From a virus (taxonomy: Duplodnaviria > Heunggongvirae > Uroviricota > Caudoviricetes): a stretch of 64,000 nt of DNA. Position numbers and translations under genes: made by a program. This document shows, in pieces, positions 1 to 61,160 of the stretch. Below the pieces are notes generated by a model that did not search any database, was not told the DNA's origin, and worked only from the letters and a program-made list of their open reading frames with translations. The stretch spans positions 287,171 through 351,170 of the IMG/VR virus record IMGVR_UViG_3300028833_000001; one strand, given 5' to 3'. How positions within the stretch are numbered: the stretch's first letter is position 1; every line of letters starts with the position of its first letter.

Positions 1-1207
1 TTCGATTAAAAATTTATTACTACCTACAAGCACGAATGATAATTCTCTTGTTGTTGAAACCGTTGACGTGCATGAATTTTTAGAGTGTTTAGTTCGTAAT
101 GGATTAACATATAAGGGCTTTTATTCTGGAAAATCATTTATAAGTGGTGCGTTCAAGTATATGCCGTACAGTGAAATTGTAGCTAAAAATGGTGAAATAA
201 GAAAGAAAGCAAAACCAAATATGTCACTTTTTTATCTTGGCGAGAATTATGATATGGCTGGCATCGGGCCACAATCAACTTCAACTAGTATATTTGAGTT
301 TTCAGAGGTAAATGCGTTTCCAGATTACAATAGGCATTACGAGTTCATCGAGGGTTTCCCATTGCATAAAAGTGGAAGCACGTATTTAGCGTATTCTGCC
401 ACAACTGGTAGTTTATATGAAAATGCTTCGTTATATGAAGATGTCGCAGAAAAAAGGTCATTGCAATTATCACCGAATTTTTATGATGAAATTAACTACG
501 CAATAGATTCTGCGTCAACACATCTTAGATTTGTAGGCGTTGGAGCAAGCGATTATGATGTTGAATATTATTATTGTGATAGGAGTGATGAAGATTTGCA
601 AAGATTAATGATAACTGGATATTTACCGCTTGACCGTAAATATGTATATGCCGTTAGAGATGAGTATGATAATTTTAGGGAATTTTATATGTTGTGTAAA
701 TATACATCAAAGAACCCGACAGCGTTAATCGGGGCGGAGTTTTCGATAAAAGTTTCTAAAGTTGCATTTAAGAAGTGGTATATGGCAAATGTTCCAGTGT
801 TTACAGTTACTGAGGATGAATTAGGAGAGAGTTCTTATACACCAACATTTGTTGAATGCTTATACGAGAAAGGTAGCGACTACGATGTCACTGATATGCC
901 AACAATGGCCACTATAATTGAATATCACACAAGTGGTCATGTTAAATGTGTACATAATGTATCACCAAAAGTAGAGAATATTATAGAGCCTGGAAAACAA
1001 ACTGACTTGAATTCTTTTACGTCAACATTATTACCAAAATTAACTAATGATAAAAAAATAACGCTAAATACAACGTTAGAAAATACTGGAATAAATCCAG
1101 ACGATATTTTTATTGTTGGTATAGCAAGATATAATAGTGATATGTTGGCTAGCGGAAATGTATGCAAGATTTATTCTACATTAAGACAGATAGCATATAT
1201 TGAATAA
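1..1207 (+). CDS. hypothetical (probable virion structural) protein, 5'-partial
   Basis: The frame of ORF 68..1207 is open back to the window edge (tcg att aaa ...). It is co-directional with the structural block. Confidence 0.7.
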   Translation, partial: SIKNLLLPTSTNDNSLVVETVDVHEFLECLVRNGLTYKGFYSGKSFISGAFKYMPYSEIVAKNGEIRKKAKPNMSLFYLGENYDMAGIGPQSTSTSIFEFSEVNAFPDYNRHYEFIEGFPLHKSGSTYLAYSATTGSLYENASLYEDVAEKRSLQLSPNFYDEINYAIDSASTHLRFVGVGASDYDVEYYYCDRSDEDLQRLMITGYLPLDRKYVYAVRDEYDNFREFYMLCKYTSKNPTALIGAEFSIKVSKVAFKKWYMANVPVFTVTEDELGESSYTPTFVECLYEKGSDYDVTDMPTMATIIEYHTSGHVKCVHNVSPKVENIIEPGKQTDLNSFTSTLLPKLTNDKKITLNTTLENTGINPDDIFIVGIARYNSDMLASGNVCKIYSTLRQIAYIE

Positions 1208-1230
1208 ATAAACTAACACAAGGGTTATAC

Positions 1231-3942
1231 ATGGAAAGAAAGATTTTTTTGGAGAAGAACAACAGCGTTAATTCGATTAATCGTGAATCGAGAATGTCTA
1301 TAGGATTGTCTGTTAATGAGAAATTGTTAAAAGGTAATAATGTAGACACAGAATTTTCTTTGTTTGAAGAGTATAACGCTGAAAGGGATTCGTGCGACAA
1401 ATATCGTTTCTTGCTGAAAATAAATCCGATATGCACGAATGTTCTGTTTAACACTCAAACAGAGGTTGTTTATCTTGAGGGCTCTGATAGTGCTACTGTT
1501 ATATCTGACCAATCAACTATTTCGCCAAACACAATTAATGGTGGGCAAAATAACATACAAAATTCAACTGTCATAAACAGAAAACAAGCTATACGAGATA
1601 CTGAATATTCTCATAATAGCAATGGCGATTTTTCTTATCATTGCGGTGTTGATATGTTCAATAACCATCAAATACGTAATATAGGTTTTTCGCATGTTAA
1701 CCAAATTAGTACTTCAATGTCCAATCAGGATTATGCAATGCAAAAGGGTGTTTATAACACCATTAAAGATTTTATGAGAGACGGAAGCGGTATGCCTATT
1801 ACTGGGGATGTCAATCCAAGGTACAACAGTAATAGTTATAACACTAAATTACATTTATACACTACTGATAACATAAGAACGATGAAAAGAGCTTATGTTG
1901 AAGAAATTTCTGAACAAAATGGGTGGATAGGTTTTTTTAATAAAAGCAATATTGACATTAAGAACAATGAAGAGGATACAGCGAGGATTAATTGTGTTAT
2001 AAACAACAAAAAACCGTGCGAATATATTGATTTGTATCCAGATAGAAGTCTATTTTCATTTGTTCCAAAGTATAACAAATATAGGAAAAGGGACGAAAAA
2101 AATTGGGATTATTGTATAACATACCCATTTTTAAAGGATTACGATTTAGTTGATACTATTTGTTGCGGTAGAACTCAAGCCATTAGATGTTCAGTTAAAG
2201 AAACGGTAACGCCAACTGGAAATGCCGTTATAGAATGTTCATCGTTATTTAAACATACCTTAAAAGAAGGAAGTGTAATAAACGTGTATTATTATGAGGT
2301 GGGTATGCACAATACACTGACGTTCAAAAAGTATCCTGGTAAAGTAACTGTATATTATGTTGGTGATGTTAACGGTTTAAACAATGATAATGTATTCAAT
2401 ATTAGATACGATGAAATTAGCGACATACTAGACAACATAATAAATTATGGACTTTATTATAAAAAAGTTGAAAACGGTGAAGAATGTGAATACTACTTTA
2501 GAAAATATAAGAAATTATTTGGTGTTAATAATAGCGGGAATAGAACAAAAGAACTCAAAAGCAATGTCGGGGCAGTGGCTTTTGGGCAGACAATTTACGG
2601 AGATGCAACAGCCCAAGTAACGTTTATTGATGATATTGACGTTTCTGGGTTAGTTGACCATCATGGAAGGCCGTTGTCTGAAGTGTATTTTACTGTCATT
2701 AAAAGAAATGCTGGGCACAATTTATGGTATTATCAAGACAATACATCGTCATCAGCCATCGAATTTTCGCATTGTTTCGGAAAAGTAACCAGCGGAGTTA
2801 AACTATATGGTGATAATAAAATTAATTTTGATTACAATATTAATAAATTGCATAATATTAATTCAAAGGTAAATATCCATCCGATTCCGTATAACCACGT
2901 TTATGACGTTCTTGGAGATGCAGTATTGTCTGGCACGCCAAAAGTTATTGAAAATAATATAACAAATTTAGATTCAATATTTTACGGGAATTTAGTTGAA
3001 TTTAATAAATCTGAGTATGAAGAGACTGAGTTAACTCCAGTTTTTCACAGATTTAATACTGAGCAGCGCGAATATTGTAAAGACAATAAATACGCTGAGA
3101 TATTTCATGATGAAATTAGGTTTGACGATTATGATTTTAAGAATTCTAATAATACTCAGTTTGAAGTAAATGAGCTTGATTATTCTAATATTTCAATTAG
3201 CGGAACAAATATTAAAGTATTCGGAAATTTACGGCCAGAGGGTTATTTTTATAACCCGCACACAAAAATCGCAATAAAAAAAGAAAGCGAAATAGTAAAA
3301 ACAGCAAAAGCCAAATATTTGAATTTTATTTCAATATCTGGAGCGTTTTACACAGTAAAAAACTGTACCATAGTATCTATTGAAGTGCCAACTGGTTATC
3401 AAATTTTGCGTGGAGAGCATATTGCCGTGTATGATAGAGGTGATGGGATAAATATACATGATATTAAATGGGGTGAAGTATGCAAGGTAAACGGTAATTT
3501 ACTTGAAATAGAATTTCAAGGAAGCCCATTTGGGTCGTTTCCAGTACAATATGGCGGAGTATACGATATAACATACATATTGCAAGAAGAAAGTGATGGG
3601 GTTAGGAGATTTTATATGTTCTACTCGAATGATGGTGTTCCTAATTATGCCACATTTGTTAAATCAAATTTAACATTTGTTTGGAGGGGATTAGATTTGA
3701 TGTCTGAATGCAATTATGGAGATGAATTATATAACATACCATTTGCCAATGGCAGATTGTATGTTGAGAAAAACATTAATTTTTTTGTCAAAAGACAAGA
3801 CCCTAACGGAAAATTCGGCTTATTATATGGGCTAAATGCAACTTATAACAACCCAGTGAATTTATTTAGTTTACCAGGGACAGAATTTGATATGTCACAA
3901 GCAGAAGAATTTTACAATAATTTAAATAATGTTTGCTATTAA
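1231..3942 (+). CDS. large hypothetical, probable baseplate/tail structural protein
   Basis: 903-aa ORF in a tightly packed + strand operon. No recognised catalytic motif. Confidence 0.6.
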   Translation: MERKIFLEKNNSVNSINRESRMSIGLSVNEKLLKGNNVDTEFSLFEEYNAERDSCDKYRFLLKINPICTNVLFNTQTEVVYLEGSDSATVISDQSTISPNTINGGQNNIQNSTVINRKQAIRDTEYSHNSNGDFSYHCGVDMFNNHQIRNIGFSHVNQISTSMSNQDYAMQKGVYNTIKDFMRDGSGMPITGDVNPRYNSNSYNTKLHLYTTDNIRTMKRAYVEEISEQNGWIGFFNKSNIDIKNNEEDTARINCVINNKKPCEYIDLYPDRSLFSFVPKYNKYRKRDEKNWDYCITYPFLKDYDLVDTICCGRTQAIRCSVKETVTPTGNAVIECSSLFKHTLKEGSVINVYYYEVGMHNTLTFKKYPGKVTVYYVGDVNGLNNDNVFNIRYDEISDILDNIINYGLYYKKVENGEECEYYFRKYKKLFGVNNSGNRTKELKSNVGAVAFGQTIYGDATAQVTFIDDIDVSGLVDHHGRPLSEVYFTVIKRNAGHNLWYYQDNTSSSAIEFSHCFGKVTSGVKLYGDNKINFDYNINKLHNINSKVNIHPIPYNHVYDVLGDAVLSGTPKVIENNITNLDSIFYGNLVEFNKSEYEETELTPVFHRFNTEQREYCKDNKYAEIFHDEIRFDDYDFKNSNNTQFEVNELDYSNISISGTNIKVFGNLRPEGYFYNPHTKIAIKKESEIVKTAKAKYLNFISISGAFYTVKNCTIVSIEVPTGYQILRGEHIAVYDRGDGINIHDIKWGEVCKVNGNLLEIEFQGSPFGSFPVQYGGVYDITYILQEESDGVRRFYMFYSNDGVPNYATFVKSNLTFVWRGLDLMSECNYGDELYNIPFANGRLYVEKNINFFVKRQDPNGKFGLLYGLNATYNNPVNLFSLPGTEFDMSQAEEFYNNLNNVCY

Positions 3943-6335
3943 TGGAACACATTAAAATTAATCTTGTAAATCCAGTTTATGGCGTTCGTGAAATGCCAAT
4001 ACATTGTTTTTTTATTGAAAACAATATGTTAAAGATAGTTTTTGTTGACGATGAAAACCATAAAATGAATATTGGACAGCATTTAACGTTTGTGCGGTAT
4101 ATTTACGACGATAACGACATATCTACATCTATTCAAGATAATATAGAAGTAATTTCGTTTGATAAATACTATGATAATGGTGTTGAGTACGATTGCGTCT
4201 ATACAACAATACCGCAAAAACGTCGTTTATCGCTAGATAGGACTACGACAGAAAATGTTGTATATTGGGATAAAATTGATAACAGGTATGTTGTTGTTGA
4301 TAATCCGACATTAGGATTTTATGATTATGTTTTCGATGAAAATAATGTTACTGGAATTGATTTATCGTCATTAACAAACGAAGAAATCGATTCTCTTCCA
4401 GAGCATTTATACACAATTGAGGAAAGTATTTACGGTATTAGAAAATTCAAAACGCTGTTCCCAGCTGGAACAATACCAAGTTCAGATATACTGACTTCTA
4501 TTATTATAGAAGCTATGACTAATGAAGGCATAGAAATTCCAGAAGAATATTTAGGAGATAATATATATGATTATATCGATGAGGGCCTTGGTGGCGATAA
4601 TTATGATGGAATGGATTCTACTTTGGACCATTTATACGATATAGGCGCATTTGACATTGATAGATATGACGAATATTTCGTTTTAACGTTTAATGAAAAA
4701 CATGATATCTATCAACAAGATATCGATTTACTGGCCAGCAGCCAAATGACTGGAGAATATTATATTAATGTGTACGATTCAGAAATGAGTAAAATTGGTT
4801 ATTTTCTTGCATTGCATATTCCTTACGTCGATAATTTGCTTCCAGTAGATAAAAAAACGACTTTAACTGAATGGGTTGAACAAACATGCGGTATGTTTGA
4901 TATGGATGGAAATCCATACGATATTACGTATCATAAATATGTTTTTGCCCCAAACAGATTTAGCAAAAAAAGTATTATAGTTAGAAAAGCTGAAACTGGA
5001 TATGTCAGTGAATCACCTATAGATACACCACAAACACTTAATATAAAAAAAATAGAATATCTTTTAGAGCATGGTTTCTGGTTTGAGCCAGCATATACAC
5101 CGTTTTTTTATACAACAACAATTAATAACTCAGAATGGTGCACAATGTGGGACGATATATGGTGGGATTATTATGAAAACAACAACGGAGCTATCCCACA
5201 AAAAAACATTTGGTTTAACAGTGGTAATACACATGTGGCTCTTACAATAGATAATAGTTATTGGAATGTTCCGACATTATTTTCATCTAATGATGAATTT
5301 ACGTCGCTTAATACCGACGAAGACGGTGTTTATAATTTCATTGAAAATACGATATCAAACTCATTACCAAAAGCTATTGATTTTGAAAGAGTTAAATATT
5401 TTCCAGTCATTTTTAATGAAACGCCATCTGGAAACTACACTAAAGCAAGTGAAATAATATATAGGCTACATTTCAGACAGAGAGTCAAAAAAAATGGGCA
5501 AGAAGTGTCTAATATTCCAGAAGAATATAGGCCATATGAAGATGGTTGGTATGTTAATCAAGAATCAGGAAGTACTGTGTGGTGGAATGAAATGCAATAC
5601 TCTTTAACAAAACTAACCAATTCAGAAATGACGGCTTTTGTTTTATCGCAAAACAAAAAATCCGATATGTTGGGGTATCTTAATTTTAATGATGATGATG
5701 TGTTTTTTAGCAAAACTAAACTAACAAAATCTTTTGTTAGATTTTCATTCTACACATCAAAAGACCCTATAGAGCAAAAACTTCTTTATTATTCTACTTC
5801 GTTTTTTGATATTCATGAATTAAGGCAAAAATATATTAAACTTTTGATAAAAAACGGTAGAAAACCAGAAAAAAATGAGCGACCGTTTGTGCTAACTGAT
5901 GATAATGAAAATAGACTTGACAGTACAATAAAATTAACTGATGAACATAATTCAGATAAGTCCAGCGATGGTTTCAATATATACCTATTTTTAGAAGATG
6001 CTCCAATAGAAAATAGTGAAAAAACTATTTATATGAAAGTTGAATTTAACCATGCTGGGAACGGAAAAACTATACCAATGATATTATGGCCTAAAAACAA
6101 TAACGGAAATTATGTCAGTCTTACAACGTCTAATTTTCTTAGTAGTCTTTACATTCCAATTATAATTAAATACATTAATGGAGAATATGTGTATGAAATA
6201 GTTGGTTCACAAGTAAATGGCGATATAATTGAGGTTAGTTTATTTGAGCCAAAACTTGATATAGAAGGTGACGATTTCGTACCAACAACTGGTAATACAG
6301 ATTCAACGAGTGATACACAAACACAAAACACATAA
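3933..6335 (+). CDS. large hypothetical, probable structural protein
   Basis: 800-aa acidic ORF overlapping the previous stop codon. Confidence 0.6.
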   Translation: MLLMEHIKINLVNPVYGVREMPIHCFFIENNMLKIVFVDDENHKMNIGQHLTFVRYIYDDNDISTSIQDNIEVISFDKYYDNGVEYDCVYTTIPQKRRLSLDRTTTENVVYWDKIDNRYVVVDNPTLGFYDYVFDENNVTGIDLSSLTNEEIDSLPEHLYTIEESIYGIRKFKTLFPAGTIPSSDILTSIIIEAMTNEGIEIPEEYLGDNIYDYIDEGLGGDNYDGMDSTLDHLYDIGAFDIDRYDEYFVLTFNEKHDIYQQDIDLLASSQMTGEYYINVYDSEMSKIGYFLALHIPYVDNLLPVDKKTTLTEWVEQTCGMFDMDGNPYDITYHKYVFAPNRFSKKSIIVRKAETGYVSESPIDTPQTLNIKKIEYLLEHGFWFEPAYTPFFYTTTINNSEWCTMWDDIWWDYYENNNGAIPQKNIWFNSGNTHVALTIDNSYWNVPTLFSSNDEFTSLNTDEDGVYNFIENTISNSLPKAIDFERVKYFPVIFNETPSGNYTKASEIIYRLHFRQRVKKNGQEVSNIPEEYRPYEDGWYVNQESGSTVWWNEMQYSLTKLTNSEMTAFVLSQNKKSDMLGYLNFNDDDVFFSKTKLTKSFVRFSFYTSKDPIEQKLLYYSTSFFDIHELRQKYIKLLIKNGRKPEKNERPFVLTDDNENRLDSTIKLTDEHNSDKSSDGFNIYLFLEDAPIENSEKTIYMKVEFNHAGNGKTIPMILWPKNNNGNYVSLTTSNFLSSLYIPIIIKYINGEYVYEIVGSQVNGDIIEVSLFEPKLDIEGDDFVPTTGNTDSTSDTQTQNT

Positions 6336-6362
6336 ATAATAATATGATAGTTAATACTATAA

Positions 6363-8849
6363 ATGGATATTATACGTAAACAAGTAAGTGTTGATAGAGG
6401 CATTTCCCACACACCTGGGCTAATTCCGTATTATCCATATAATGATATAAATTCAAGCATTAGATTCGTTACTGGAATCGATGTTGATGGCAATTATAAT
6501 GAATATGTATGTGATTTTGGGAAGGTGGCCAGTTGTGTGTGTGGCGTAACAGAAACACTATCGTATTATAAAGAAGAAATCTGCACATCTGGCATTTCAG
6601 AGTCTGATAATTCTATAGAGGCTAGATTTAGGTATTGTGATGCCATACATCATTACCTGAAAATTTCGGAATCTCTTAGAACTGGTGTTTTCGGAAAGGT
6701 TGTTAAACATACAGAAACTACTGTTGTTAATGTAAATTGTTCAACTTCTGACCATAATTGTTCTGAAGGCCCAATAGAAGAAACAAATTCTGAAGACTAT
6801 TATGATATAGTGACTTGTTTTCATGAAACACCATCAAAATTTGAATTTAAACCGTTAGATTGTGACTTGTTTTCGCGTATTGACCAAAATATATATAGAT
6901 TAACTTATCCAGAAATAGACCCAGACGAACCACAAACAAGTGACGAGCCAGTTCAAATAGATATGAATATGGTTTTAAAAAGACAGGAAGCCGTCGAGTC
7001 GCTTGTAGAAGGGAATTTCGTTGTTTTAATTTCAAATTATGACGAAATTATTGGTTACGAAAACGAATGGAAGTCTTGGTGGGAAAAGTGGTTTGGAGAA
7101 GGATGGGAAACAATAGCATATGGTGAGTCATATGTTCAACCCAATGAGCCGTCTTTTTTCCCTTTTTGTCAGAATTTTGAAAAATATTTTTTAGGAAAAA
7201 ATTATGTACCAAATGAATTTGCTGAAAGCGCTATAACTGGGATTTACGTTCCAGAATATGTATATAATGCCGATTTATATAATTATATAACTTGGTTTGA
7301 AGAACGTAATATCGAAAGGGATGATGAACTGCAAAAAGATTGGGATAAACATGGCGGGGATGTTTTTTTTGAATATTTAAAGACACTGTCAACACGGTGG
7401 ATAACAGGAAACACAGAGCATGATTTTTCGATACAAGAGCCACAAACAAGGTTTAAATTTTTAACGCCATATGTTAGTGTTCCTATAGTATTGACGCAGT
7501 CAAATGACGTTGCCTGGAATTATGAAAGTTATTTAGATTCAAGTAGACCGTTTTTGCCAGAAGGGGAGTTTAGCGGATATTCGATTTTTAACAGTGGGCA
7601 TTTTGTTACGTTGTCTGATTCTGGCTATGTAGAATCAAAATTATCATTTGTAGCCGACAAAAAAGCAACATTTGTTGACGGTATTTTTGGCGTGTGGGAT
7701 GAAATGAGTATCAGTAATAGCAGTTCGAAAATTTTTGCTGGAACATATCATACAGGCAACAGTGCAACCATAGGTGTATCTGTTATTCGGAAAATTTATC
7801 ATAGTGGCGGTACTGTTGATATTATTCAATTACAAGAGCAAAATGTTTTAGAAGAAGCCCCAACCGTACAACCATCAACTTCAATGGTGCTATTGGTTAA
7901 TAAATTTTTGGATGCTACAGATGGTGCCAACACGCAAAATACAACACAAATAACAAGTGGCCCAGAAATTAATGGTGATATTGTTCTAATTGAAGAAATT
8001 ACAGCAACAACGAACTACAAATATGGCTGGTGGGAATTTCAAGAAACTGATGCTAATGTGTCTTGTGGAGATGGTGAAATAATACATCCTAACGACGAAA
8101 AGTATCAAACAGTCCAAACGATATCAAACGTTAAGACGATAGTTAAAAACCCACAAGAAAATGATTTGTATTACTTTTATGTTCAATATAACAACGGTGT
8201 TGTATGTACTGGAGGTACACAAGTAAAGGTGGACTCTAAAAATACAACAAAAAATTTCATGTTGCCATATAAAAGTGATACATATTTTGACATGGAATAT
8301 ATAACAACGGATAATAACGGTGATTTGTATGTTGGTAACTATATACCTCCATCTGGTGTGACAATTGAAAGCGGTTTTTGTACTATAAATTATGTCATTG
8401 GTGGTAGGGCATATTATAATTCACAAACATCAGCATACACACCAGTGACTTATAGCGGAATACATTATTCCGAGAGTTATCCATATATAACTGGGTATAA
8501 GTTAATTACGCTTGACGGTTATAAAAATCTTGATTTTTATTACGAAACACTTCAATATGATGCAAACATAGAAACTGCAATATACGAAGAGTATAAAAAA
8601 GAAAGAAAAGTAATTAGAGCAAAGCTTGTTGGGATGGAAGTCGGTACAACGTGGACCAGCGGAAATTCAATAATAGCGCCTATATTCACTGACGAATTTA
8701 CATCAACACAACAATATGACAATAAAAGCATAATGGATATTTCAATAGATAGAGGAGTTGCGGCTGCATTTGAAACTAATTATAAGTTAGGTGAATGTAA
8801 CACACTTGAAGATATTGAAAATTATTCAAACAACTTTTTTAAAATTTAA
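6363..8849 (+). CDS. large hypothetical, probable structural protein
   Basis: 828-aa ORF in the operon. Confidence 0.6.
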   Translation: MDIIRKQVSVDRGISHTPGLIPYYPYNDINSSIRFVTGIDVDGNYNEYVCDFGKVASCVCGVTETLSYYKEEICTSGISESDNSIEARFRYCDAIHHYLKISESLRTGVFGKVVKHTETTVVNVNCSTSDHNCSEGPIEETNSEDYYDIVTCFHETPSKFEFKPLDCDLFSRIDQNIYRLTYPEIDPDEPQTSDEPVQIDMNMVLKRQEAVESLVEGNFVVLISNYDEIIGYENEWKSWWEKWFGEGWETIAYGESYVQPNEPSFFPFCQNFEKYFLGKNYVPNEFAESAITGIYVPEYVYNADLYNYITWFEERNIERDDELQKDWDKHGGDVFFEYLKTLSTRWITGNTEHDFSIQEPQTRFKFLTPYVSVPIVLTQSNDVAWNYESYLDSSRPFLPEGEFSGYSIFNSGHFVTLSDSGYVESKLSFVADKKATFVDGIFGVWDEMSISNSSSKIFAGTYHTGNSATIGVSVIRKIYHSGGTVDIIQLQEQNVLEEAPTVQPSTSMVLLVNKFLDATDGANTQNTTQITSGPEINGDIVLIEEITATTNYKYGWWEFQETDANVSCGDGEIIHPNDEKYQTVQTISNVKTIVKNPQENDLYYFYVQYNNGVVCTGGTQVKVDSKNTTKNFMLPYKSDTYFDMEYITTDNNGDLYVGNYIPPSGVTIESGFCTINYVIGGRAYYNSQTSAYTPVTYSGIHYSESYPYITGYKLITLDGYKNLDFYYETLQYDANIETAIYEEYKKERKVIRAKLVGMEVGTTWTSGNSIIAPIFTDEFTSTQQYDNKSIMDISIDRGVAAAFETNYKLGECNTLEDIENYSNNFFKI

Positions 8850-49747: not shown

Positions 49748-51367
49748 ATGATAAAAATTATTGTTGCAGTAGGTAATTATATCCCAGAAAAGGGGTTTCC
49801 AATTGGAAAAAACGGTGGCTTGGCCTGGAATTTTCCAGAAGACCTTAAATGGTTCAGAAAAACAACTGAACACAATATAGTTGTAATGGGCAGAAACACG
49901 TATAAATCATTCGGAGGTAAGCCATTACAGAATAGAGACAATTATATAGTTTCAAATTCAATGACCGAAATCCCAGAAGGATTTTGCGGGATTTTGCACA
50001 GCATTGATGAAATTGTTGACTTATCTAAAAACCAAATAGGAGACGTGTATATTATTGGTGGCGCAGAGTTATACAGGTCAGTTCTTGACGCTGATATTGT
50101 TGATGAAGTTTTAAACGACTTTATTGATGTTGAAGTTCCAGATGCAGACACATTTTTCCAGCCTTTGGATTTGAATAAGTGGAAAATTGATGAAGAGGGT
50201 ATAAGATTAAGCGATAAATGCACTGTCAATACATTTAAACATGCAAAATTTTTTAATGATGTTGATGAACAATATTTGAATTTGGTGCAAGATGTTATAG
50301 TTAATGGTGAATTGAAAGAAACACGGGCTGGAATGACAAGGTCTGTTTTTGGAAAGCAACTTCGTTTCAACCTTAAAAATGGTTTGCCATTGCTAACAAC
50401 AAAAAAAGTTTACACAAACGGTATCATTCATGAACTTATTTGGTTCCTTAAAGGCGATACGAATATTAAATATCTTGTTGACAATAATGTGCATATATGG
50501 GATGATGACGCATACAGATATTATCTTGAGCTTGTTGAAAAAAACAACGAAGTCTTTAAATGTGATGACACACCATTGTTGAATGCTCATTACTTTGAGC
50601 CTATCACAAAGGAAGAGTTCTTGAAAGCTGTCATTGAAGAAAAAGACTGTTGGTTATACCTGGATAGATTGGCTGGTTTTATGTCATACTATCCAAACAA
50701 CTATTATATTCATTATAAATTTGGCGACCTTGGTCCTGTTTATGGTGAACAATGGAGAAACTGGTATGGCGTTGACCAAATAAAGACAGTTATTGAAACA
50801 TTAAGAACAAATCCAGATGACAGAAGAATGATTGTCTCTGCTTGGAATGTTAAAGAATTGGATAAAATGGCTCTTCCTCCTTGTCATTACTCATTTCAAT
50901 TTTATACAAAAAAAATGGATATTGTAGAAAGAATGAATTGGGCCTTAGAACATAATTTAAATTGTTGGGATGAAAAATCTTTGGATGACAATAATGTACC
51001 TTCACGGAAATTAAGTTGCCTCTGGAATCAACGTAGTGTAGATTCAATATGCGGATTGCCGTTCAATATAGCATCATATGCAATTCTTACTTATATGATT
51101 GCACAATGCTGTAATATGAAACCAGATGAATTGATATTTAATGGTGGAGACGTTCATGTATATGAAAACCATATAGAAGCATTTACAGAACAATTATACA
51201 GAAATCCACATAAATATGCATTACCACAATTGGAGCTTAATCCAAACGTAAAAGAAATTGATGATTTTAGGGCATATGATATTAAAATAGTTGGATATCA
51301 ATCATACCCAGCGATAAAATATCAATTAAATGTAGGCCTAAATAATAACAATGGCGAAGCTAAATAA
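49748..51367 (+). CDS. thyA: bifunctional dihydrofolate reductase-thymidylate synthase
   Basis: N-terminal DHFR (IGKNGGLAW..PEDLKWF, VVMGRNT, IIGGAELY, DTFF) in frame with ThyA (LPPCH, QRSVD, GLPFNIASY, GDVHVY). Confidence 0.95.
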   Translation: MIKIIVAVGNYIPEKGFPIGKNGGLAWNFPEDLKWFRKTTEHNIVVMGRNTYKSFGGKPLQNRDNYIVSNSMTEIPEGFCGILHSIDEIVDLSKNQIGDVYIIGGAELYRSVLDADIVDEVLNDFIDVEVPDADTFFQPLDLNKWKIDEEGIRLSDKCTVNTFKHAKFFNDVDEQYLNLVQDVIVNGELKETRAGMTRSVFGKQLRFNLKNGLPLLTTKKVYTNGIIHELIWFLKGDTNIKYLVDNNVHIWDDDAYRYYLELVEKNNEVFKCDDTPLLNAHYFEPITKEEFLKAVIEEKDCWLYLDRLAGFMSYYPNNYYIHYKFGDLGPVYGEQWRNWYGVDQIKTVIETLRTNPDDRRMIVSAWNVKELDKMALPPCHYSFQFYTKKMDIVERMNWALEHNLNCWDEKSLDDNNVPSRKLSCLWNQRSVDSICGLPFNIASYAILTYMIAQCCNMKPDELIFNGGDVHVYENHIEAFTEQLYRNPHKYALPQLELNPNVKEIDDFRAYDIKIVGYQSYPAIKYQLNVGLNNNNGEAK

Positions 51368-53316: not shown

Positions 53317-53389
53317 GCGCCCGTAACTCAGCTGGTAGAGTACATCCCTTTTAAGGATGGAGTCGTGGGTTCGAATCCCACCGAGCGCA
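53317..53389 (+). tRNA. trnK: tRNA-Lys(TTT)
   Basis: Cloverleaf with CATCC-CTTTTAA-GGATG. Confidence 0.95.
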
Positions 53390-53416
53390 CAATAATAAAT
53401 TTAAAATTATAATAAA

Positions 53417-54001: not shown

Positions 54002-54718
54002 ATGAATCAGAAAAGAGAATACGTTAGAAAAAATTTGGATATAATAAACAAAATGATAGAAAACAAACGACCTAAGTTTGAAATAGCTAGGGTTTTGGGA
54101 GTTAAATATTCCACATTAGATAAATATTTAAAAGAATTTGGTATTGATTATAAAGGAAACCCAAATAGAAAGGGAATTCCGCATATGGAAGGAAGAATGC
54201 TAATTGAAGAATATTTAAATGGAAATAGAAACATACAAGCATCTAAACTAAGACAAAAACTAATAGAAAATGGTTTAAAAGAAGAAAAATGTGAATGCTG
54301 TGGGTTAACTGAATGGATGGGTAAAAAAATTCCGTTAGAACTTCACCATAAAAATATGAACCATAACGATAATAGTTTAGACAATCTTCAAATACTTTGT
54401 TCTAATTGTCATTCTTTAGCACATGAATATAATAATACAAAAGGTAAACCAGAAAGTTCTATTGATACTATTTTATTAAAAAAACGTGTTAAAGAGGTTG
54501 GTCATTGCAAACAGTGCGGAAAAGAATTAACAAATAGCCAGAAAATTTATTGTTCACAAGAGTGCGCTCATTTAAATGTTAGTAAAATACCACAAAAAAA
54601 CGAATTAATTGATAAATTAAATGAGTTTAACTGGAATAAAACAAAAACTGGTAAGTATTTTGGCGTAAGTGATAACGCAATTCGTAAATGGATTAAAAAG
54701 TACGACATAAAAAAATAA
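54002..54718 (+). CDS. HNH homing endonuclease with HTH domains
   Basis: CECCG...LELHHKN.NHNDNSLDNLQILCSNCH, a second CxxC..YCS..C finger and a C-terminal HTH. Confidence 0.9.
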   Translation: MNQKREYVRKNLDIINKMIENKRPKFEIARVLGVKYSTLDKYLKEFGIDYKGNPNRKGIPHMEGRMLIEEYLNGNRNIQASKLRQKLIENGLKEEKCECCGLTEWMGKKIPLELHHKNMNHNDNSLDNLQILCSNCHSLAHEYNNTKGKPESSIDTILLKKRVKEVGHCKQCGKELTNSQKIYCSQECAHLNVSKIPQKNELIDKLNEFNWNKTKTGKYFGVSDNAIRKWIKKYDIKK

Positions 54719-54898: not shown

Positions 54899-55044
54899 GC
54901 TCCTATAGTTCAATGGACAGAACAGAAGTTTCCTATACAAGAGTAAACTTGTTTAAATCATTTCTATGTGAAATTGGTTTTATTGGGTTCGAGTCCCACA
55001 CATAGAACAAACTTCAAATCTTGGTTCGAATCCAAGTAGGAGTA
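54899..55044 (+). tRNA. trnR: tRNA-Arg(CCT) interrupted by a 74-nt insert in the anticodon loop
   Basis: GAAGT-TTCCT[insert]AA-ACTTC. Acceptor, D and T arms are intact. Confidence 0.8.
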
Positions 55045-56291: not shown

Positions 56292-56361
56292 CGGGATGTA
56301 GTTTAATGTTAAAATAATTGTGCTTAGGACAGTGATATAGGTGCGAATCCTATCATCTCGG
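56292..56361 (+). tRNA. Pro-like tRNA paralog with non-canonical anticodon loop (GCTTAGG)
   Basis: Body nearly identical to the next tRNA-Pro and with the same 3' trailer CAAATATTTCATA. T-loop is TGCGAAT. Confidence 0.5.
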
Positions 56362-56394
56362 CAAATATTTCATATAGTATAAACATAATAGCAT

Positions 56395-56527
56395 CGGGAT
56401 GTAGTTTAATTTGGTAAAATGCGTTAATTTTTTCGTGTTTTGTTCTTTAAAAACACAGACAGCAACTTTTCTTTAAAATTATTGTTTTGGGGAAACCGTG
56501 TTATAGGTTCGAATCCTATCATCCCGA
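56395..56527 (+). tRNA. trnP: tRNA-Pro(GGG) with 60-nt insert between positions 28/29
   Basis: CG[56424-56483]GTT-TTGGGGA-AACCG, with C1-G72 and A73. Confidence 0.75.
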
Positions 56528-56837: not shown

Positions 56838-57018
56838 TGCGGGATGGAGCAGAGGTCAGCTCGTCAGGCTCAATACAGAGTGGTTTTCTGAAAAAAACTG
56901 TTGATGCCAATTGTTCAAGAGAAGAGCCGATACACAATCAAATTGTGTGTCGAGGCTGGTTCGAGTCCAGCTGGCGTCGCTAACCTGAAGGTCGGGGGTT
57001 CGAATCCCTCTCCCGCTA
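56838..57018 (+). tRNA. trnfM: initiator-type tRNA-fMet(CAT) interrupted by a 108-nt insert containing a nested tRNA-like fold
   Basis: 1:72 mismatch, GGAGCAG..GCTCG D-arm and TCAGG-CTCA[56873-56980]TAA-CCTGA. Confidence 0.8.
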
Positions 57019-57688: not shown

Positions 57689-57771
57689 AGCCAAGTGGCG
57701 GAATGGTAGACGCGAAGGTCTCAAAAACCTTTGGGGTAACCCCCGTGCGGGTTCAAGTCCCGCCTTGGCTA
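57689..57771 (+). tRNA. trnL: tRNA-Leu(CAA)
   Basis: AAGGT-CTCAAAA-ACCTT with a long variable arm. Confidence 0.95.
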
Positions 57772-57786
57772 CTGATAGAAAAATAA

Positions 57787-57855
57787 AGGATACATACAGC
57801 AAACCTTTTTTTTAAGCATCAAACTTTTAATTTGAAAACGCTAAGAAAGTATCCT
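57787..57855 (+). ncRNA. free-standing ACAGCAA element displaying a Lys(UUU) anticodon stem-loop
   Basis: Closing helix AGGATAC/GTATCCT, ATACAGCAA bulge and TCAAA-CTTTTAA-TTTGA. Confidence 0.65.
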
Positions 57856-57862
57856 GTTTTAA

Positions 57863-57935
57863 CGCCCTATCGACAAGTGGTTTAAGTCATCACCCTTTCA
57901 CGGTGGAGTCACGGGTTCGAATCCCGTTGGGGCGA
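57863..57935 (+). tRNA. trnE: tRNA-Glu(TTC)
   Basis: TCACC-CTTTCAC-GGTGG. Confidence 0.95.
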
Positions 57936-57954
57936 CAATAAAAAAAAATCAAAA

Positions 57955-58585: not shown

Positions 58586-58653
58586 CTTAAAATAAAATTT
58601 ATCCCGAAACGTGTTTTTAGCTTTTTATGACTATTTATAAAAAAAATAGTAAT

Positions 58654-59358
58654 ATGAATAATTTTGAAAATTGCAAATCGTTAAATGACATTGCTAGGCA
58701 AGAATTTGGAAAAGCAAACTATACTAATCGTGAGAAAGCTAAAAAACTATTATTTGAACACGGAATAGATTGGTTAGATTGGCTAGAATCTATTAAAATT
58801 TCTAATAAAAAGTTTTGTCTTGTTTGTGGTAAAGAATTAAGAAATGGTCAAACAAAATTTTGCAGCCATTCATGTTCTGCTGGATATAACAATAAGTTTC
58901 GAAAAACATATAAAGATAATGAAAGCCGAGAACATCATGAAAAAATTACCAAAAGTGACAAATTCTGTTTGTATTGTGGCGCAAAATTAACAAATCAACA
59001 AAAATTATTTTGTAATAATAAATGTCAACAAGATTTCAAGTATAAAGAATATATAGACCGATGGATAAATGGTGATGAAAATGGTTTAAAGGGCCAGTAT
59101 TCTTTATCAAGGCACATCAGGCGATTTTTATTGGAAAAAACAAATTGTAAATGTGAAAAATGTGGCTGGGGAGAAAAAAATCCATATACAAACACAATCC
59201 CATTAGAAATACATCATATTGATGGTGATTATACAAATAACAAGGAAGAGAATCTTCAGGTTTTGTGTCCAAATTGTCATTCTTTAACAGAAACACACAA
59301 ATCACATAATAAGAACGGAAGACAAGGTAGAAGAAAATATTATAAAAAAACAGAATAA
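58654..59358 (+). CDS. HNH homing endonuclease
   Basis: Two CxxCG..FC..C fingers and CEKCG...LEIHHIDGDYTNNKEENLQVLCPNCH. Start set at the second ATG, downstream of ACTATTTAT. Confidence 0.9.
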   Translation: MNNFENCKSLNDIARQEFGKANYTNREKAKKLLFEHGIDWLDWLESIKISNKKFCLVCGKELRNGQTKFCSHSCSAGYNNKFRKTYKDNESREHHEKITKSDKFCLYCGAKLTNQQKLFCNNKCQQDFKYKEYIDRWINGDENGLKGQYSLSRHIRRFLLEKTNCKCEKCGWGEKNPYTNTIPLEIHHIDGDYTNNKEENLQVLCPNCHSLTETHKSHNKNGRQGRRKYYKKTE

Positions 59359-60796: not shown

Positions 60797-60915
60797 CGGG
60801 GAGTAGCTCAGTTGGTTAGAGCGCGTAATGTAGATTCTTGTAAAAGAATCAAACAGCAATGTTTACGAATGTCATTTGAAGACCGTGGTCGTGGGTTCGA
60901 GTCCCACCTCCCCAG
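60797..60915 (+). tRNA. Gln(TTG)-anticodon tRNA with 45-nt insert between positions 28/29
   Basis: CG[60826-60870]GTC-ATTTGAA-GACCG, canonical D and T arms, C1.A72 and G73. Confidence 0.7.
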
Positions 60916-61082: not shown

Positions 61083-61153
61083 TGAGCCATCGTCTAACGG
61101 CAAGACACCAGATTTTGGTTCTGGGAATCGAGGTTCGAATCCTCGTGGCTCAA
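61083..61153 (+). tRNA. trnQ: tRNA-Gln(TTG)
   Basis: CCAGA-TTTTGGT-TCTGG with U1-A72. Confidence 0.93.
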
Positions 61154-61160
61154 CAAACAA

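What the first reader, a model, noticed from the sequence alone, without database searches (positions are those of the whole stretch)
57787..57855. Stand-alone ACAGCAA element presenting a Lys(UUU) anticodon stem-loop with no tRNA body
SEEN: AGGATAC-ATACAGCAA-...-TCAAA-CTTTTAA-TTTGA-...TAA..-GTATCCT. This is the same module as the two tRNA inserts but topologically permuted (the helix now closes the ends). It displays a textbook 5-bp/7-nt anticodon arm whose loop is identical to the tRNA-Lys loop at 53317-53389. KNOWN: tRNA-Lys(UUU) is the target of PrrC and of other anti-phage anticodon nucleases. INFERENCE: a minimal anticodon decoy or nuclease sensor. The ACAGCAA + anticodon module would be a small RNA family with interchangeable anticodons (Lys, Pro, Gln here).
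Basis: partly seen in the sequence, partly recalled or inferred. Interest (0 to 1): 0.78.

Follow-up and report, generated by a model that had tools for sequence, protein, structure and literature searches.

The report
Handle-tagged lysine anticodon-arm small RNA
Between two tRNA genes of a 361-kb phage lies a real, conserved gene for a ~70-base RNA that shows only the anticodon hairpin of tRNA-Lys on a short conserved "handle"; the handle travels with a Ro60-like ring protein in many phages, so this is probably an undescribed Y-RNA-like particle used in the fight over tRNAs.

Summary
Positions 57787-57855 form a 7-bp terminal helix, followed on the 5' side by AU + ACAGCAA. The helix encloses a 5-bp/7-nt hairpin whose loop, CUUUUAA, is identical to that of the phage's own tRNA-Lys(UUU).

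It is not chance. The same "handle" (helix, N2-3, (A/U)CAGCAA, 3' GU) recurs in dozens of unrelated phage tRNA clusters:
- The helix occurs in 18 covarying versions.
- Of 36 non-redundant short members, 23 carry a YU-NNN-RN 7-nt loop, against 1.3 expected. Lys(UUU) is the commonest.
- Longer members enclose a circularly permuted tRNA body with YrlA-like architecture. Others carry the handle as a hairpin inside ordinary tRNAs, as two tRNAs in this window do.

The handle tracks a DUF2828/vWA protein: 31 of 48 handle-bearing contigs have it, against 0 of 29 controls. This genome encodes one about 25 kb away, beside an RNA ligase and a polynucleotide-kinase-like gene. Its model matches only Ro60 structures at the top of a PDB search.

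Best reading: a Y-RNA-like partner RNA that presents a tRNA-Lys anticodon mimic. A role as a decoy or sensor for anticodon nucleases is plausible but untested. The handle also resembles Dictyostelium Class I RNAs. No Rfam family and no paper in the held library describes it. Earlier notes of this scan report the same family on other DNA in at least 75 genomes.

The parts
57787..57793 (+). 5' strand of the 7-bp terminal helix (AGGAUAC) of the handle
   Evidence: Pairs with 57849-57855. Helix covaries across the family: 18 variants, 91/103 perfect.
57794..57802 (+). Single-stranded handle motif: linker AU + ACAGCAA
   Evidence: CAGCAA is present in 88 of 91 family members with a perfect helix. 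It aligns with the conserved motif of Rfam RF01414.
57803..57818 (+). Variable U-rich linker between handle and cargo
   Evidence: The only stretch with more than a single-base difference from the close relative L052; handle and hairpin are identical.
57819..57835 (+). Cargo: anticodon-arm mimic, 5-bp stem + 7-nt loop CUUUUAA (UUU at 57826-57828)
   Evidence: Loop identical to tRNA-Lys(UUU) at 53317-53390. 23 of 36 non-redundant short homologues have a YU-NNN-RN loop against 1.3 in shuffles.
57836..57848 (+). A-rich 3' linker before the closing strand
   Evidence: The stretch before the 3' strand is A-rich in most of the family members listed.
57849..57855 (+). 3' strand of the terminal helix (GUAUCCU)
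57856..57858 (+). Conserved 3' tail GUU (with the preceding C: CUGU)
   Evidence: The tail is GTT in 69 and GTA in 12 of 91 members. Class I RNAs of Dictyostelium end in CUGU.
57689..57772 (+). Upstream tRNA-Leu(CAA); forms a conserved unit with the element and probably defines its 5' processing
   Evidence: The tRNA-Leu + element unit is kept in L052 while both outer flanks diverge.
57863..57936 (+). Downstream tRNA-Glu(UUC), 7 nt after the helix; RNase P cutting at its 5' end would free the element's 3' end (inferred)
56435..56465 (+). Same handle in closed-hairpin topology inside tRNA-Pro(GGG) 56395-56527: 7-bp hairpin + AG + ACAGCAA
   Evidence: Removing the insert restores a 5-bp anticodon stem (read from the sequence).
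60833..60859 (+). Same handle in closed-hairpin topology inside tRNA-Gln(UUG) 60797-60915: GAUUCUU-GUAA-AAGAAUC + AA + ACAGCAA
   Evidence: An intact tRNA-Gln(UUG) also exists at 61083-61154.

Best explanation
Positions 57787-57858 encode a ~70-nt small RNA, co-transcribed with the tRNA array. It is probably freed by the enzymes that trim the flanking tRNA-Leu and tRNA-Glu.

It has two modules. The first is a conserved handle: a 7-bp helix formed by the RNA's two ends, an unpaired AU-ACAGCAA directly after the 5' strand, and a 3' CUGU. The second is a cargo, which here is only a tRNA-Lys(UUU) anticodon stem-loop.

By analogy with Y RNAs, the handle docks the phage's Ro60-like ring protein (DUF2828 + vWA, encoded at G000:C1:8232-9836, outside the window). 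The anticodon arm is the exposed part and engages an anticodon-directed enzyme. The most likely such enzyme is a host anticodon nuclease, with the RNA acting as bait or decoy. This may be coupled to the RNA ligase and the polynucleotide-kinase-like enzyme encoded next to the Ro60-like gene.

Shown here: the element's anatomy, its family membership, helix covariation, conservation of anticodon-like loops, co-occurrence with the DUF2828 gene, and the Ro60-like fold of this phage's protein.

Inferred: transcription and processing, physical binding to the Ro60-like protein, and the decoy or repair role.
For: Family and structure
- (1) The 15-mer scan and the covariance model recover the same architecture in dozens of unrelated phage tRNA clusters.
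- (2) The closing helix is perfect in 91 of 103 matches, with 18 sequence variants and double compensatory changes at all 7 positions. The control gives 0.2. The core CAGCAA is present in 88 of 91 and the tail GU in 84 of 91.
- (3) 23 of 36 non-redundant short members show a hairpin of at least 4 bp with a YU-NNN-RN 7-nt loop, against 1.3 +/- 1.1 (maximum 5) in 300 shuffles. UUU (Lys) is the commonest triplet.
- (4) The loop is identical to that of the phage's tRNA-Lys.
- (5) The close relative L052 keeps handle and hairpin letter for letter. The 5' linker has changed, and the DNA upstream of tRNA-Leu and downstream of the element is unrelated.
- (6) Long members enclose a permuted tRNA body. 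They hit Rfam YrlA over its full length, with the terminal helices aligned (31.9-36.8 bits).

Partner protein
- (7) DUF2828 (PF11443) is found in 31 of 48 handle-bearing contigs, including 7 of 12 contigs under 15 kb. It is found in 1 of 30 contigs where the 15-mer looked like a chance match, and that one (L012) is itself a handle-like element.
- (8) RNA ligase PF09414 is found in only 11 of 48.
- (9) This genome has a 534-aa DUF2828 + DUF7788/VWA_2 protein. Its AlphaFold model has pLDDT 80 and pTM 0.81.
- (10) The top 13 PDB matches of that model are all Ro60/TROVE structures: phage phiLo, Deinococcus Rsr, Xenopus and human (E 5e-7 to 2e-5).
- (11) On the same strand as that gene lie, in order, an RNA ligase directly next to it, a DUF932 gene, and a polynucleotide-kinase-like gene.

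Precedent
- (12) phiLo Ro60 binds phage-encoded Y-like RNAs that have a 5'-3' stem and an adjacent short motif (PMC12135203).
Against: - No expression or binding data exist; the phage is known only from a metagenome.
- In this genome the Ro60-like gene is not next to the element. It is about 25 kb away if the record ends join (an ORF runs across them), and about 335 kb away in record coordinates.
- 17 of 48 handle-bearing contigs show no DUF2828. Most are fragments, but one is a 90%-complete genome, G011.
- The control contigs are smaller and of other phage types, so the contrast is inflated.
- The canonical Ro60 Pfam family TROVE gives no hit in this genome. DUF2828 scores just under its cut-off here (25.7-27 bits against 29).
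- The handle lacks the GNCGAA/CGAA motif of known Ro60-binding Y RNAs.
- The fold energy of the element alone is not significant.
- Nothing here tests the decoy idea. The RNA-repair neighbours fit other roles equally well.
Confidence: 0.6

Rival explanations
1. Free-standing anticodon decoy or nuclease sensor. The RNA works on its own by soaking up or reporting PrrC-type nucleases. The helix + ACAGCAA only stabilises it and binds no dedicated protein.
For: - The loop is identical to tRNA-Lys(UUU).
- Anticodon-like loops are conserved across the family and dominated by Lys.
- The Ro60-like gene is not adjacent here.
- A 90%-complete handle-bearing genome lacks detectable DUF2828.
- From general knowledge, tRNA-Lys(UUU) is a classic target of anticodon nucleases.
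Against: - A mere stabilising clamp would not need an invariant single-stranded CAGCAA and a fixed 3' GU across 18 helix variants.
- The handle's linkage with DUF2828 (31/48 against 0/29 true controls; 7/12 contigs under 15 kb) argues for a protein partner.
- Many family members carry cargo without any anticodon, such as tetraloops or whole sealed tRNA bodies.
Confidence: 0.15
2. The handle is recognised by a different factor, either a host protein or another phage protein. An RRM protein would parallel Rnp1A, which binds Dictyostelium Class I RNAs. Co-occurrence with DUF2828 would then reflect a shared tRNA or RNA-repair island, not a direct contact.
For: - The handle matches Rfam Class I RNA (stem, UACAGCAA, CUGU) at 19.1 bits here and 35.4 bits in a relative. 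The known direct binder of Class I RNA is an RRM protein.
- The handle lacks the CGAA-type motif of Ro60-bound Y RNAs.
Against: - Tiny contigs of 4-8 kb hold both the handle RNAs and DUF2828.
- The neighbouring RNA ligase tracks the handle much less well (11/48).
- The terminal stem of long members aligns with the stem of YrlA that carries the proposed Rsr-binding motif.
Confidence: 0.13
3. Processing element or split intron. On this view the helix + ACAGCAA is a splicing or cleavage signal. The tRNA inserts would be introns, and the free-standing copy an intron-only or permuted unit that is cut out, perhaps circularised, and discarded.
For: - The same module interrupts tRNA-Pro and tRNA-Gln where its removal restores perfect anticodon stems.
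- Lak megaphages have unexplained tRNA introns (PMC6784885).
- The element is packed tightly between two tRNAs.
Against: - The cargo, not only the handle, is conserved and anticodon-like. Discarded RNA would not need that.
- Long members have sealed acceptor stems with loops of a few nt, often with tetraloops in place of anticodon loops. They cannot become tRNAs.
- An intact tRNA-Gln(UUG) already exists.
- No ribozyme or intron family matches.
- Mature Class I RNAs, which share the motif, keep it.
Confidence: 0.07
4. Chance hairpins in an AT-rich tRNA spacer, or a decayed tRNA remnant with no function.
For: - Fold z-score is only -1.35.
- The heptamer is not enriched genome-wide.
- The region is 29% GC.
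Against: Family-wide conservation, helix covariation and loop statistics. The element is conserved letter for letter in L052 while its flanks are unrelated.
Confidence: 0.01

Closest known systems
Bacterial and phage Y RNAs with Ro60/Rsr: YrlA (Rfam RF02553; Chen et al. 2014, PMC4201824) and Yrl1/Yrl2 of Thermus phage phiLo (PMC12135203)
   Same: - Small RNAs whose 5' and 3' ends form a stem, with a short conserved motif beside it.
- A second module that mimics tRNA.
- Encoded in genomes that have a ring-shaped Ro60-fold + vWA protein.
- Long relatives of this element align with YrlA end to end.
- The partner candidate's model matches only Ro60 structures at the top of the PDB search.
   Different: - The motif is (A/U)CAGCAA, not GNCGAA/CGAA.
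- There is no second helix after the terminal stem.
- The cargo here is a bare anticodon arm; YrlA lacks exactly that arm and keeps the T, D and acceptor parts.
- Scores are far below Rfam's threshold, and there is no YrlA hit for this element.
- The protein is DUF2828, not Pfam TROVE.
- The genes are not adjacent in this genome.
Dictyostelium Class I RNAs (Rfam RF01414; Kjellin et al. 2021, PMC7919456)
   Same: - About 60 nt long, with a short stem joining the ends that starts with an invariant G.
- An unpaired motif ending in UACAGCAA directly after the 5' strand.
- A variable interior and a 3' end CUGU.
- A relative of this element scores 35.4 bits against the 41.5-bit threshold.
   Different: - Class I RNAs are eukaryotic nuclear genes with a DUSE promoter.
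- The linker is one base longer there.
- No anticodon-like cargo is reported.
- The known binder is the RRM protein Rnp1A.
- The family is reported as unique to dictyostelids.
- This element scores only 19.1 bits (E 0.13 in a 101-nt search).
tRNA anticodon stem-loop of tRNA-Lys(UUU), in the setting of phage tRNA repair (T4 Pnk + Rnl1 against PrrC; general knowledge, not tested here)
   Same: A 5-bp stem and a 7-nt loop CUUUUAA identical to the phage's tRNA-Lys. The phage encodes an RNA ligase and a PNK-like kinase beside the Ro60-like gene.
   Different: There are no D, T or acceptor arms, so it cannot be charged or decode. The stem sequence differs from the phage tRNA-Lys. Whether U34 and A37 are modified is unknown.
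Enigmatic tRNA introns of Lak megaphages (Devoto et al. 2019, PMC6784885)
   Same: Phage tRNA genes interrupted by short conserved inserts of unknown mechanism, including a possible tRNA inside an intron. This window has four insert-bearing tRNAs.
   Different: The paper names no ACAGCAA motif and no free-standing form. I did not test whether the Lak inserts carry this handle.

Membership tests
Phage 'handle' RNAs (terminal helix + ACAGCAA); undescribed working family defined here | 7-bp helix formed by the two ends; second pair G-C almost invariant; other pairs covary | tested here: met
   AGGAUAC/GUAUCCU at 57787-57793 and 57849-57855. This is the commonest of the 18 variants (35 of 91).
Phage 'handle' RNAs (terminal helix + ACAGCAA); undescribed working family defined here | Unpaired N2-3 + (A/U)CAGCAA directly after the 5' strand, and GU(U) directly after the 3' strand | tested here: met
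   AU-ACAGCAA at 57794-57802 and GUU at 57856-57858. The model built from 15 members gives 72 bits, but this copy was in the training set.
Phage 'handle' RNAs (terminal helix + ACAGCAA); undescribed working family defined here | Lies in a phage tRNA array on the tRNA strand and carries tRNA-derived cargo | tested here: met
   It lies between tRNA-Leu and tRNA-Glu on the + strand. The cargo is an anticodon arm with the tRNA-Lys loop.
Phage 'handle' RNAs (terminal helix + ACAGCAA); undescribed working family defined here | Genome encodes a DUF2828/vWA Ro60-like protein | tested here: met
   G000:C1:8232-9836, with a Ro60 fold. It is about 25 kb away, not adjacent.
YrlA / Y RNA (Rfam RF02553) | Score at or above Rfam's gathering threshold (69 bits) | tested here: not met
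   No YrlA hit on the element even at E up to 10. Long relatives score 29-37 bits.
YrlA / Y RNA (Rfam RF02553) | Ro60-binding motif GNCGAA(N)G / CGAA near the 5' end | tested here: not met
   The corresponding place holds GGAUACAUACAGCAA.
YrlA / Y RNA (Rfam RF02553) | tRNA-like domain with T arm, D arm and closed acceptor stem | tested here: not met
   Absent from this element, which has only an anticodon arm. Present in long relatives.
YrlA / Y RNA (Rfam RF02553) | Bound by a Ro60/Rsr protein encoded nearby | not testable with these tools
   Indirect evidence only: co-occurrence and the Ro60-like fold. Pfam TROVE is not matched.
Dictyostelium Class I RNA (Rfam RF01414) | Score at or above the gathering threshold (41.5 bits) | tested here: not met
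   19.1 bits, E 0.13. The best relative scores 35.4 bits.
Dictyostelium Class I RNA (Rfam RF01414) | 6-bp end stem starting with G; adjacent 11-nt motif with invariant U3, C6, C9, A10, A11; 3' CUGU | tested here: met
   The stem, C-AU-ACAGCAA (one base shorter than the 11-nt motif) and CUGU are all present.
Dictyostelium Class I RNA (Rfam RF01414) | Dictyostelid nuclear gene with a DUSE promoter about 60 nt upstream | tested here: not met
   The element lies 15 nt after a tRNA in a phage genome.
tRNA (Rfam RF00005) | Cloverleaf with acceptor, D, anticodon and T arms | tested here: not met
   ARAGORN finds none. The Rfam tRNA model gives 10.8 bits against a 29-bit threshold.

The most novel reading that the evidence does not exclude
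The helix + ACAGCAA + CUGU handle is a recognition tag shared across domains of life, used by phages, giant-virus bins and dictyostelid Class I RNAs. It mounts interchangeable RNA cargo on a Ro60-type (DUF2828) ring. On this reading the anticodon-arm versions, such as this Lys(UUU) one, are baits matched to particular anticodon nucleases. They let the phage sense or neutralise those nucleases and hand damaged tRNA to the ligase and kinase encoded beside the ring protein.
Probability: 0.2. Interest if true: 0.92.

Novelty: new variant of a known kind. Interest (0 to 1): 0.78.

Why it matters
If the reading holds, phages carry a widespread small-RNA/protein particle that is in no catalogue. It is built on the Ro60/Y-RNA plan but uses a different handle, and it displays exchangeable tRNA parts, down to a bare anticodon arm.

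- It would give a concrete, testable function to DUF2828, a protein family with no functional characterisation in the held literature and thousands of members.
- It would explain many "broken", "permuted" or "intron-bearing" tRNA calls in large phage genomes.
- It would add a new kind of player to the conflict over tRNA anticodon loops between phages and bacterial defence nucleases.
- The near-identity of the handle to Dictyostelium Class I RNAs, whose mechanism has been open for about 20 years, offers a new lead for those RNAs as well.

Tried and rejected
- Counting ACAGCAA alone: not enriched in the genome. The apparent excess in the window (18 against 9.4) is mostly coding matches.
- A permissive regex for stem + CAGCAA gave hundreds of chance hits. 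A stricter version left 7 against 1-4 in controls, of which only two look real.
- Rfam: at gathering thresholds it finds only tRNAs in the window, and no ribozyme or intron family matches the element.
- Self-cleaving ribozyme or HDV-like 'theta' readings were considered from memory and dropped, because the helices and conserved cores do not fit.
- Pfam TROVE and RtcB: no match in the genome.
- blastn against deposited phages found only tRNA similarities.
- Literature searches for the motif strings, for permuted tRNAs in phages and for DUF2828 found nothing relevant.
- Pair counts on alignment A3 with its stored structure are not usable, because the stored brackets were out of register. I recounted the helix with a script.
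- The ESM Atlas look-up only confirmed DUF2828/DUF7788 clusters in viruses and Bacillota. It said nothing about amoebae.
- Fold energy against shuffles is not significant.

Full report
**Context.** The window is G000:C1:287171-351170 of a 361,445-bp virus record with 33% GC. From about 52.7 to 61.5 kb it holds 26 ARAGORN tRNAs on the + strand, plus three more that Rfam calls with large inserts. The finding lies between tRNA-Leu(CAA) at 57689-57772 and tRNA-Glu(UUC) at 57863-57936.

**Observation.** The sequence is as described.
- AGGATAC (57787-57793) pairs with GTATCCT (57849-57855).
- AT + ACAGCAA follows the 5' strand (57794-57802).
- TCAAA-CTTTTAA-TTTGA sits at 57819-57835.
- The 7-nt loop equals that of the phage tRNA-Lys(UUU), whose anticodon arm is CATCC-CTTTTAA-GGATG.
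- No tRNA body exists.

Taken alone the element is unimpressive. RNAfold gives -10.3 kcal/mol with z -1.35, and the heptamer is not enriched genome-wide.

**Comparative evidence changes the picture.** An exact scan of IMG/VR for GGATACATACAGCAA returned more than 116 stretches. About half are chance matches inside genes. The rest lie in phage tRNA clusters and are closed downstream by GTATCC + TG. Three layouts occur.
1. Short free-standing elements like this one, with 18-47 nt between the motif and the closing strand.
2. Elements enclosing 86-119 nt that read as anticodon arm, variable loop, T arm, acceptor 3' strand, a loop of a few nt, acceptor 5' strand, then D arm. This is a circularly permuted tRNA body with a sealed, covarying acceptor stem.
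3. Ordinary-order tRNAs in which the handle helix is a closed hairpin, followed by AT-ACAGCAA, between the D and anticodon arms.

Layout 3 is what the window's tRNA-Pro(GGG) at 56395-56527 and tRNA-Gln(UUG) at 60797-60915 show, with other helix sequences.

**Covariation of the helix.** A covariance model built from 15 short members found 104 matches in 51 loci. I parsed these with a script.
- 91 of the 103 matches with the core (window copy included) have a perfect 7-bp closing helix; random interior 7-mers give 0.2.
- There are 18 helix versions, with double compensatory changes at every position.
- CAGCAA is present in 88 of 91, and the first base of the motif is A or U.
- GUU or GUA follows the helix in 81 of 91.

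**The cargo.** After removing interiors more than 80% alike, 23 of 36 short members have a hairpin of at least 4 bp with a 7-nt YU-NNN-RN loop. Shuffled interiors give 1.3 +/- 1.1, with a maximum of 5 in 300 shuffles. The triplets counted were UUU x7, GUU x3, and UCU, UUC, UGA and GUA x2 each, plus GCA, GGU, UAU, UGG and UGU. Long members carry either true anticodon arms or tetraloops.

**A close relative.** L052 keeps tRNA-Leu, the handle and the hairpin almost letter for letter. The 5' linker has changed, and the DNA upstream of tRNA-Leu and downstream of the element is unrelated.

**What it resembles.** Rfam has no family for it.
- The only near hit on the element is Dictyostelium Class I RNA (RF01414, 19.1 bits, E 0.13). 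A second free-standing member, L086:81-137, reaches 35.4 bits against a 41.5-bit threshold.
- The published definition of Class I RNAs fits point for point, apart from a linker one base shorter. That definition is a short end stem starting with an invariant G, an adjacent unpaired motif CCUUACAGCAA, a variable interior, a 3' CUGU and a length of about 60 nt (PMC7919456).
- Long members hit YrlA (RF02553) over its full length at 31.9 bits. The handle helix aligns to the YrlA terminal stem, but ACAGCAA stands where YrlA has GNCGAA.

**Partner protein.** Earlier notes of this scan pointed to DUF2828, and I tested that here.
- PF11443 is found in 31 of 48 handle-bearing contigs. These include 5 of 6 contigs that are at least 90% complete and 7 of 12 contigs under 15 kb.
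- It is found in 1 of 30 contigs where the 15-mer seemed a chance match. That one, L012, is itself a handle-closed non-coding element, which leaves 0 of 29 true controls.
- RNA ligase PF09414 occurs in only 11 of 48.
- G000 has one DUF2828-like ORF at C1:8232-9836 on the - strand. It is 534 aa, carries DUF7788/VWA_2 in its C-terminal half, and has more than 2,200 homologues.
- Its AlphaFold model (pLDDT 80.2, pTM 0.81) has only Ro60/TROVE structures as its 13 best PDB matches: phiLo phage Ro60, Deinococcus Rsr, Xenopus and human Ro60. E values run from 5e-7 to 2e-5 over the full length.
- On the same strand it is followed directly by an RNA ligase (6975-8222), then a DUF932 gene (5974-6858), then a polynucleotide-kinase-like protein (5040-5918).
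- An ORF of 1,664 codons runs across the joined record ends. The record is therefore probably circular or permuted, which puts the Ro60-like gene about 25 kb from the element.

**How many in this genome.** There is one canonical copy, this element, at 72 bits. A weak second candidate lies at C1:133538-133609 on the - strand (21.3 bits). It is intergenic, has a 7-bp helix + GU-ACAGCAA, and sits about 530 nt downstream of a lone tRNA-Gly. The two tRNA-embedded handles complete the set.

**Interpretation.** Anatomy, family membership, covariation, cargo conservation, gene co-occurrence and the protein fold are all shown. Binding of the handle to the Ro60-like ring is inferred from co-occurrence and from the Y-RNA precedent: phiLo Ro60 binds phage Yrl RNAs that have an end stem plus a short motif (PMC12135203). 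The role of the Lys anticodon arm as bait for anticodon-directed enzymes is a further inference. It rests on the loop identity, on the predominance of Lys(UUU) among cargo loops, and on the ligase and kinase neighbours. By general knowledge those neighbours recall the T4 Pnk/Rnl1 repair of PrrC-cut tRNA-Lys.

**Weak points.**
- The partner gene is not adjacent in this genome.
- One nearly complete handle-bearing genome has no detectable DUF2828.
- The control contigs differ in size and phage type.
- The handle lacks the CGAA motif of known Ro60-bound Y RNAs.

**Novelty.** No paper in the held library contains the motif in this sense. The few papers that mention DUF2828 do so only in passing and give it no function. 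Class I RNAs are stated to be unique to dictyostelids. The same family has been noted many times by this scan on other DNA (128 notes in at least 75 genomes). Those notes gave me the DUF2828 lead and count as leads, not as support.

Noticed in passing
window 56395-56527 and 60797-60915: tRNA-Pro(GGG) and tRNA-Gln(UUG) each carry a 45-60-nt insert at anticodon-stem position 28/29, made of a 7-bp hairpin + 2 nt + ACAGCAA. This is the handle in closed topology. An intact tRNA-Gln(UUG) exists at 61083-61154, so the interrupted copy may be a mimic and not a spliced tRNA.
   Followed up: partly
window 54899-55044 and 56838-57018: Two more tRNAs, Arg(CCT) and an initiator-like Met with a C1-A72 mismatch, have 74-108-nt inserts in the anticodon loop. 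The inserts begin ATACA(A)GAGT and contain their own T-arm-like GGTTCGAGTCC. This recalls the 'tRNA inside an intron' reported in Lak megaphages (PMC6784885).
   Followed up: no
G000:C1:5040-9836 (outside the window), locus L128: Same-strand cluster of a Ro60-like DUF2828/vWA protein, an RNA ligase (PF09414 + PHA02142 OB fold), a DUF932 protein and a polynucleotide-kinase-like P-loop protein. It looks like an RNA-repair module.
   Followed up: partly
G000:C1:133538-133609, - strand (locus L134:14736-14811): Possible second handle RNA: GGGAGAC/GUCUCCC helix + GU-ACAGCAA, in an intergenic gap about 530 nt downstream of a lone tRNA-Gly(UCC). Its interior has a 4-bp hairpin with loop AUACCGA. The score is weak (21.3 bits, E 0.33) and the tail is GA, not GU.
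   Followed up: partly
window 56292-56362: ARAGORN calls a tRNA with anticodon UUA (reads UAA stop), with C in place of U at position 33. It is a close paralogue of the exons of the insert-bearing tRNA at 56395-56527. The window's long ORFs are open under code 11, so recoding is not evident.
   Followed up: no
window 54002-54718 and 58627-59358: Two ORFs with weak HNH-endonuclease matches (below Pfam's cut-offs), plus HTH or zinc-ribbon matches, sit inside the tRNA island. They may be homing endonucleases that shuffle the array.
   Followed up: no
window 49748-51367: A fused dihydrofolate reductase-thymidylate synthase gene (DHFR_1 + Thymidylat_synt in one 539-aa ORF).
   Followed up: no
G000 record ends (C1:360554-361445 joined to 1-4100): A 1,664-codon frame with collagen-like G-X-Y repeats stays open across the joined ends. 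The assembly probably broke inside a repeat of a circular or permuted genome.
   Followed up: partly
L031:3690-3744 (contig labelled GVMAG, a giant-virus bin): A canonical free-standing handle element (GGATAC ... GTATCC AG) lies on a 7,955-bp contig binned as a giant virus. The family may reach viruses of eukaryotes, or the contig may be a mis-binned phage.
   Followed up: no
L014:3628-3721 and L027:10956-11120: A wcaG RNA (RF01761, above threshold) and a sub-threshold HEARO match (51.7 bits against 83) lie in the same tRNA/handle-RNA clusters of other phage contigs.
   Followed up: no
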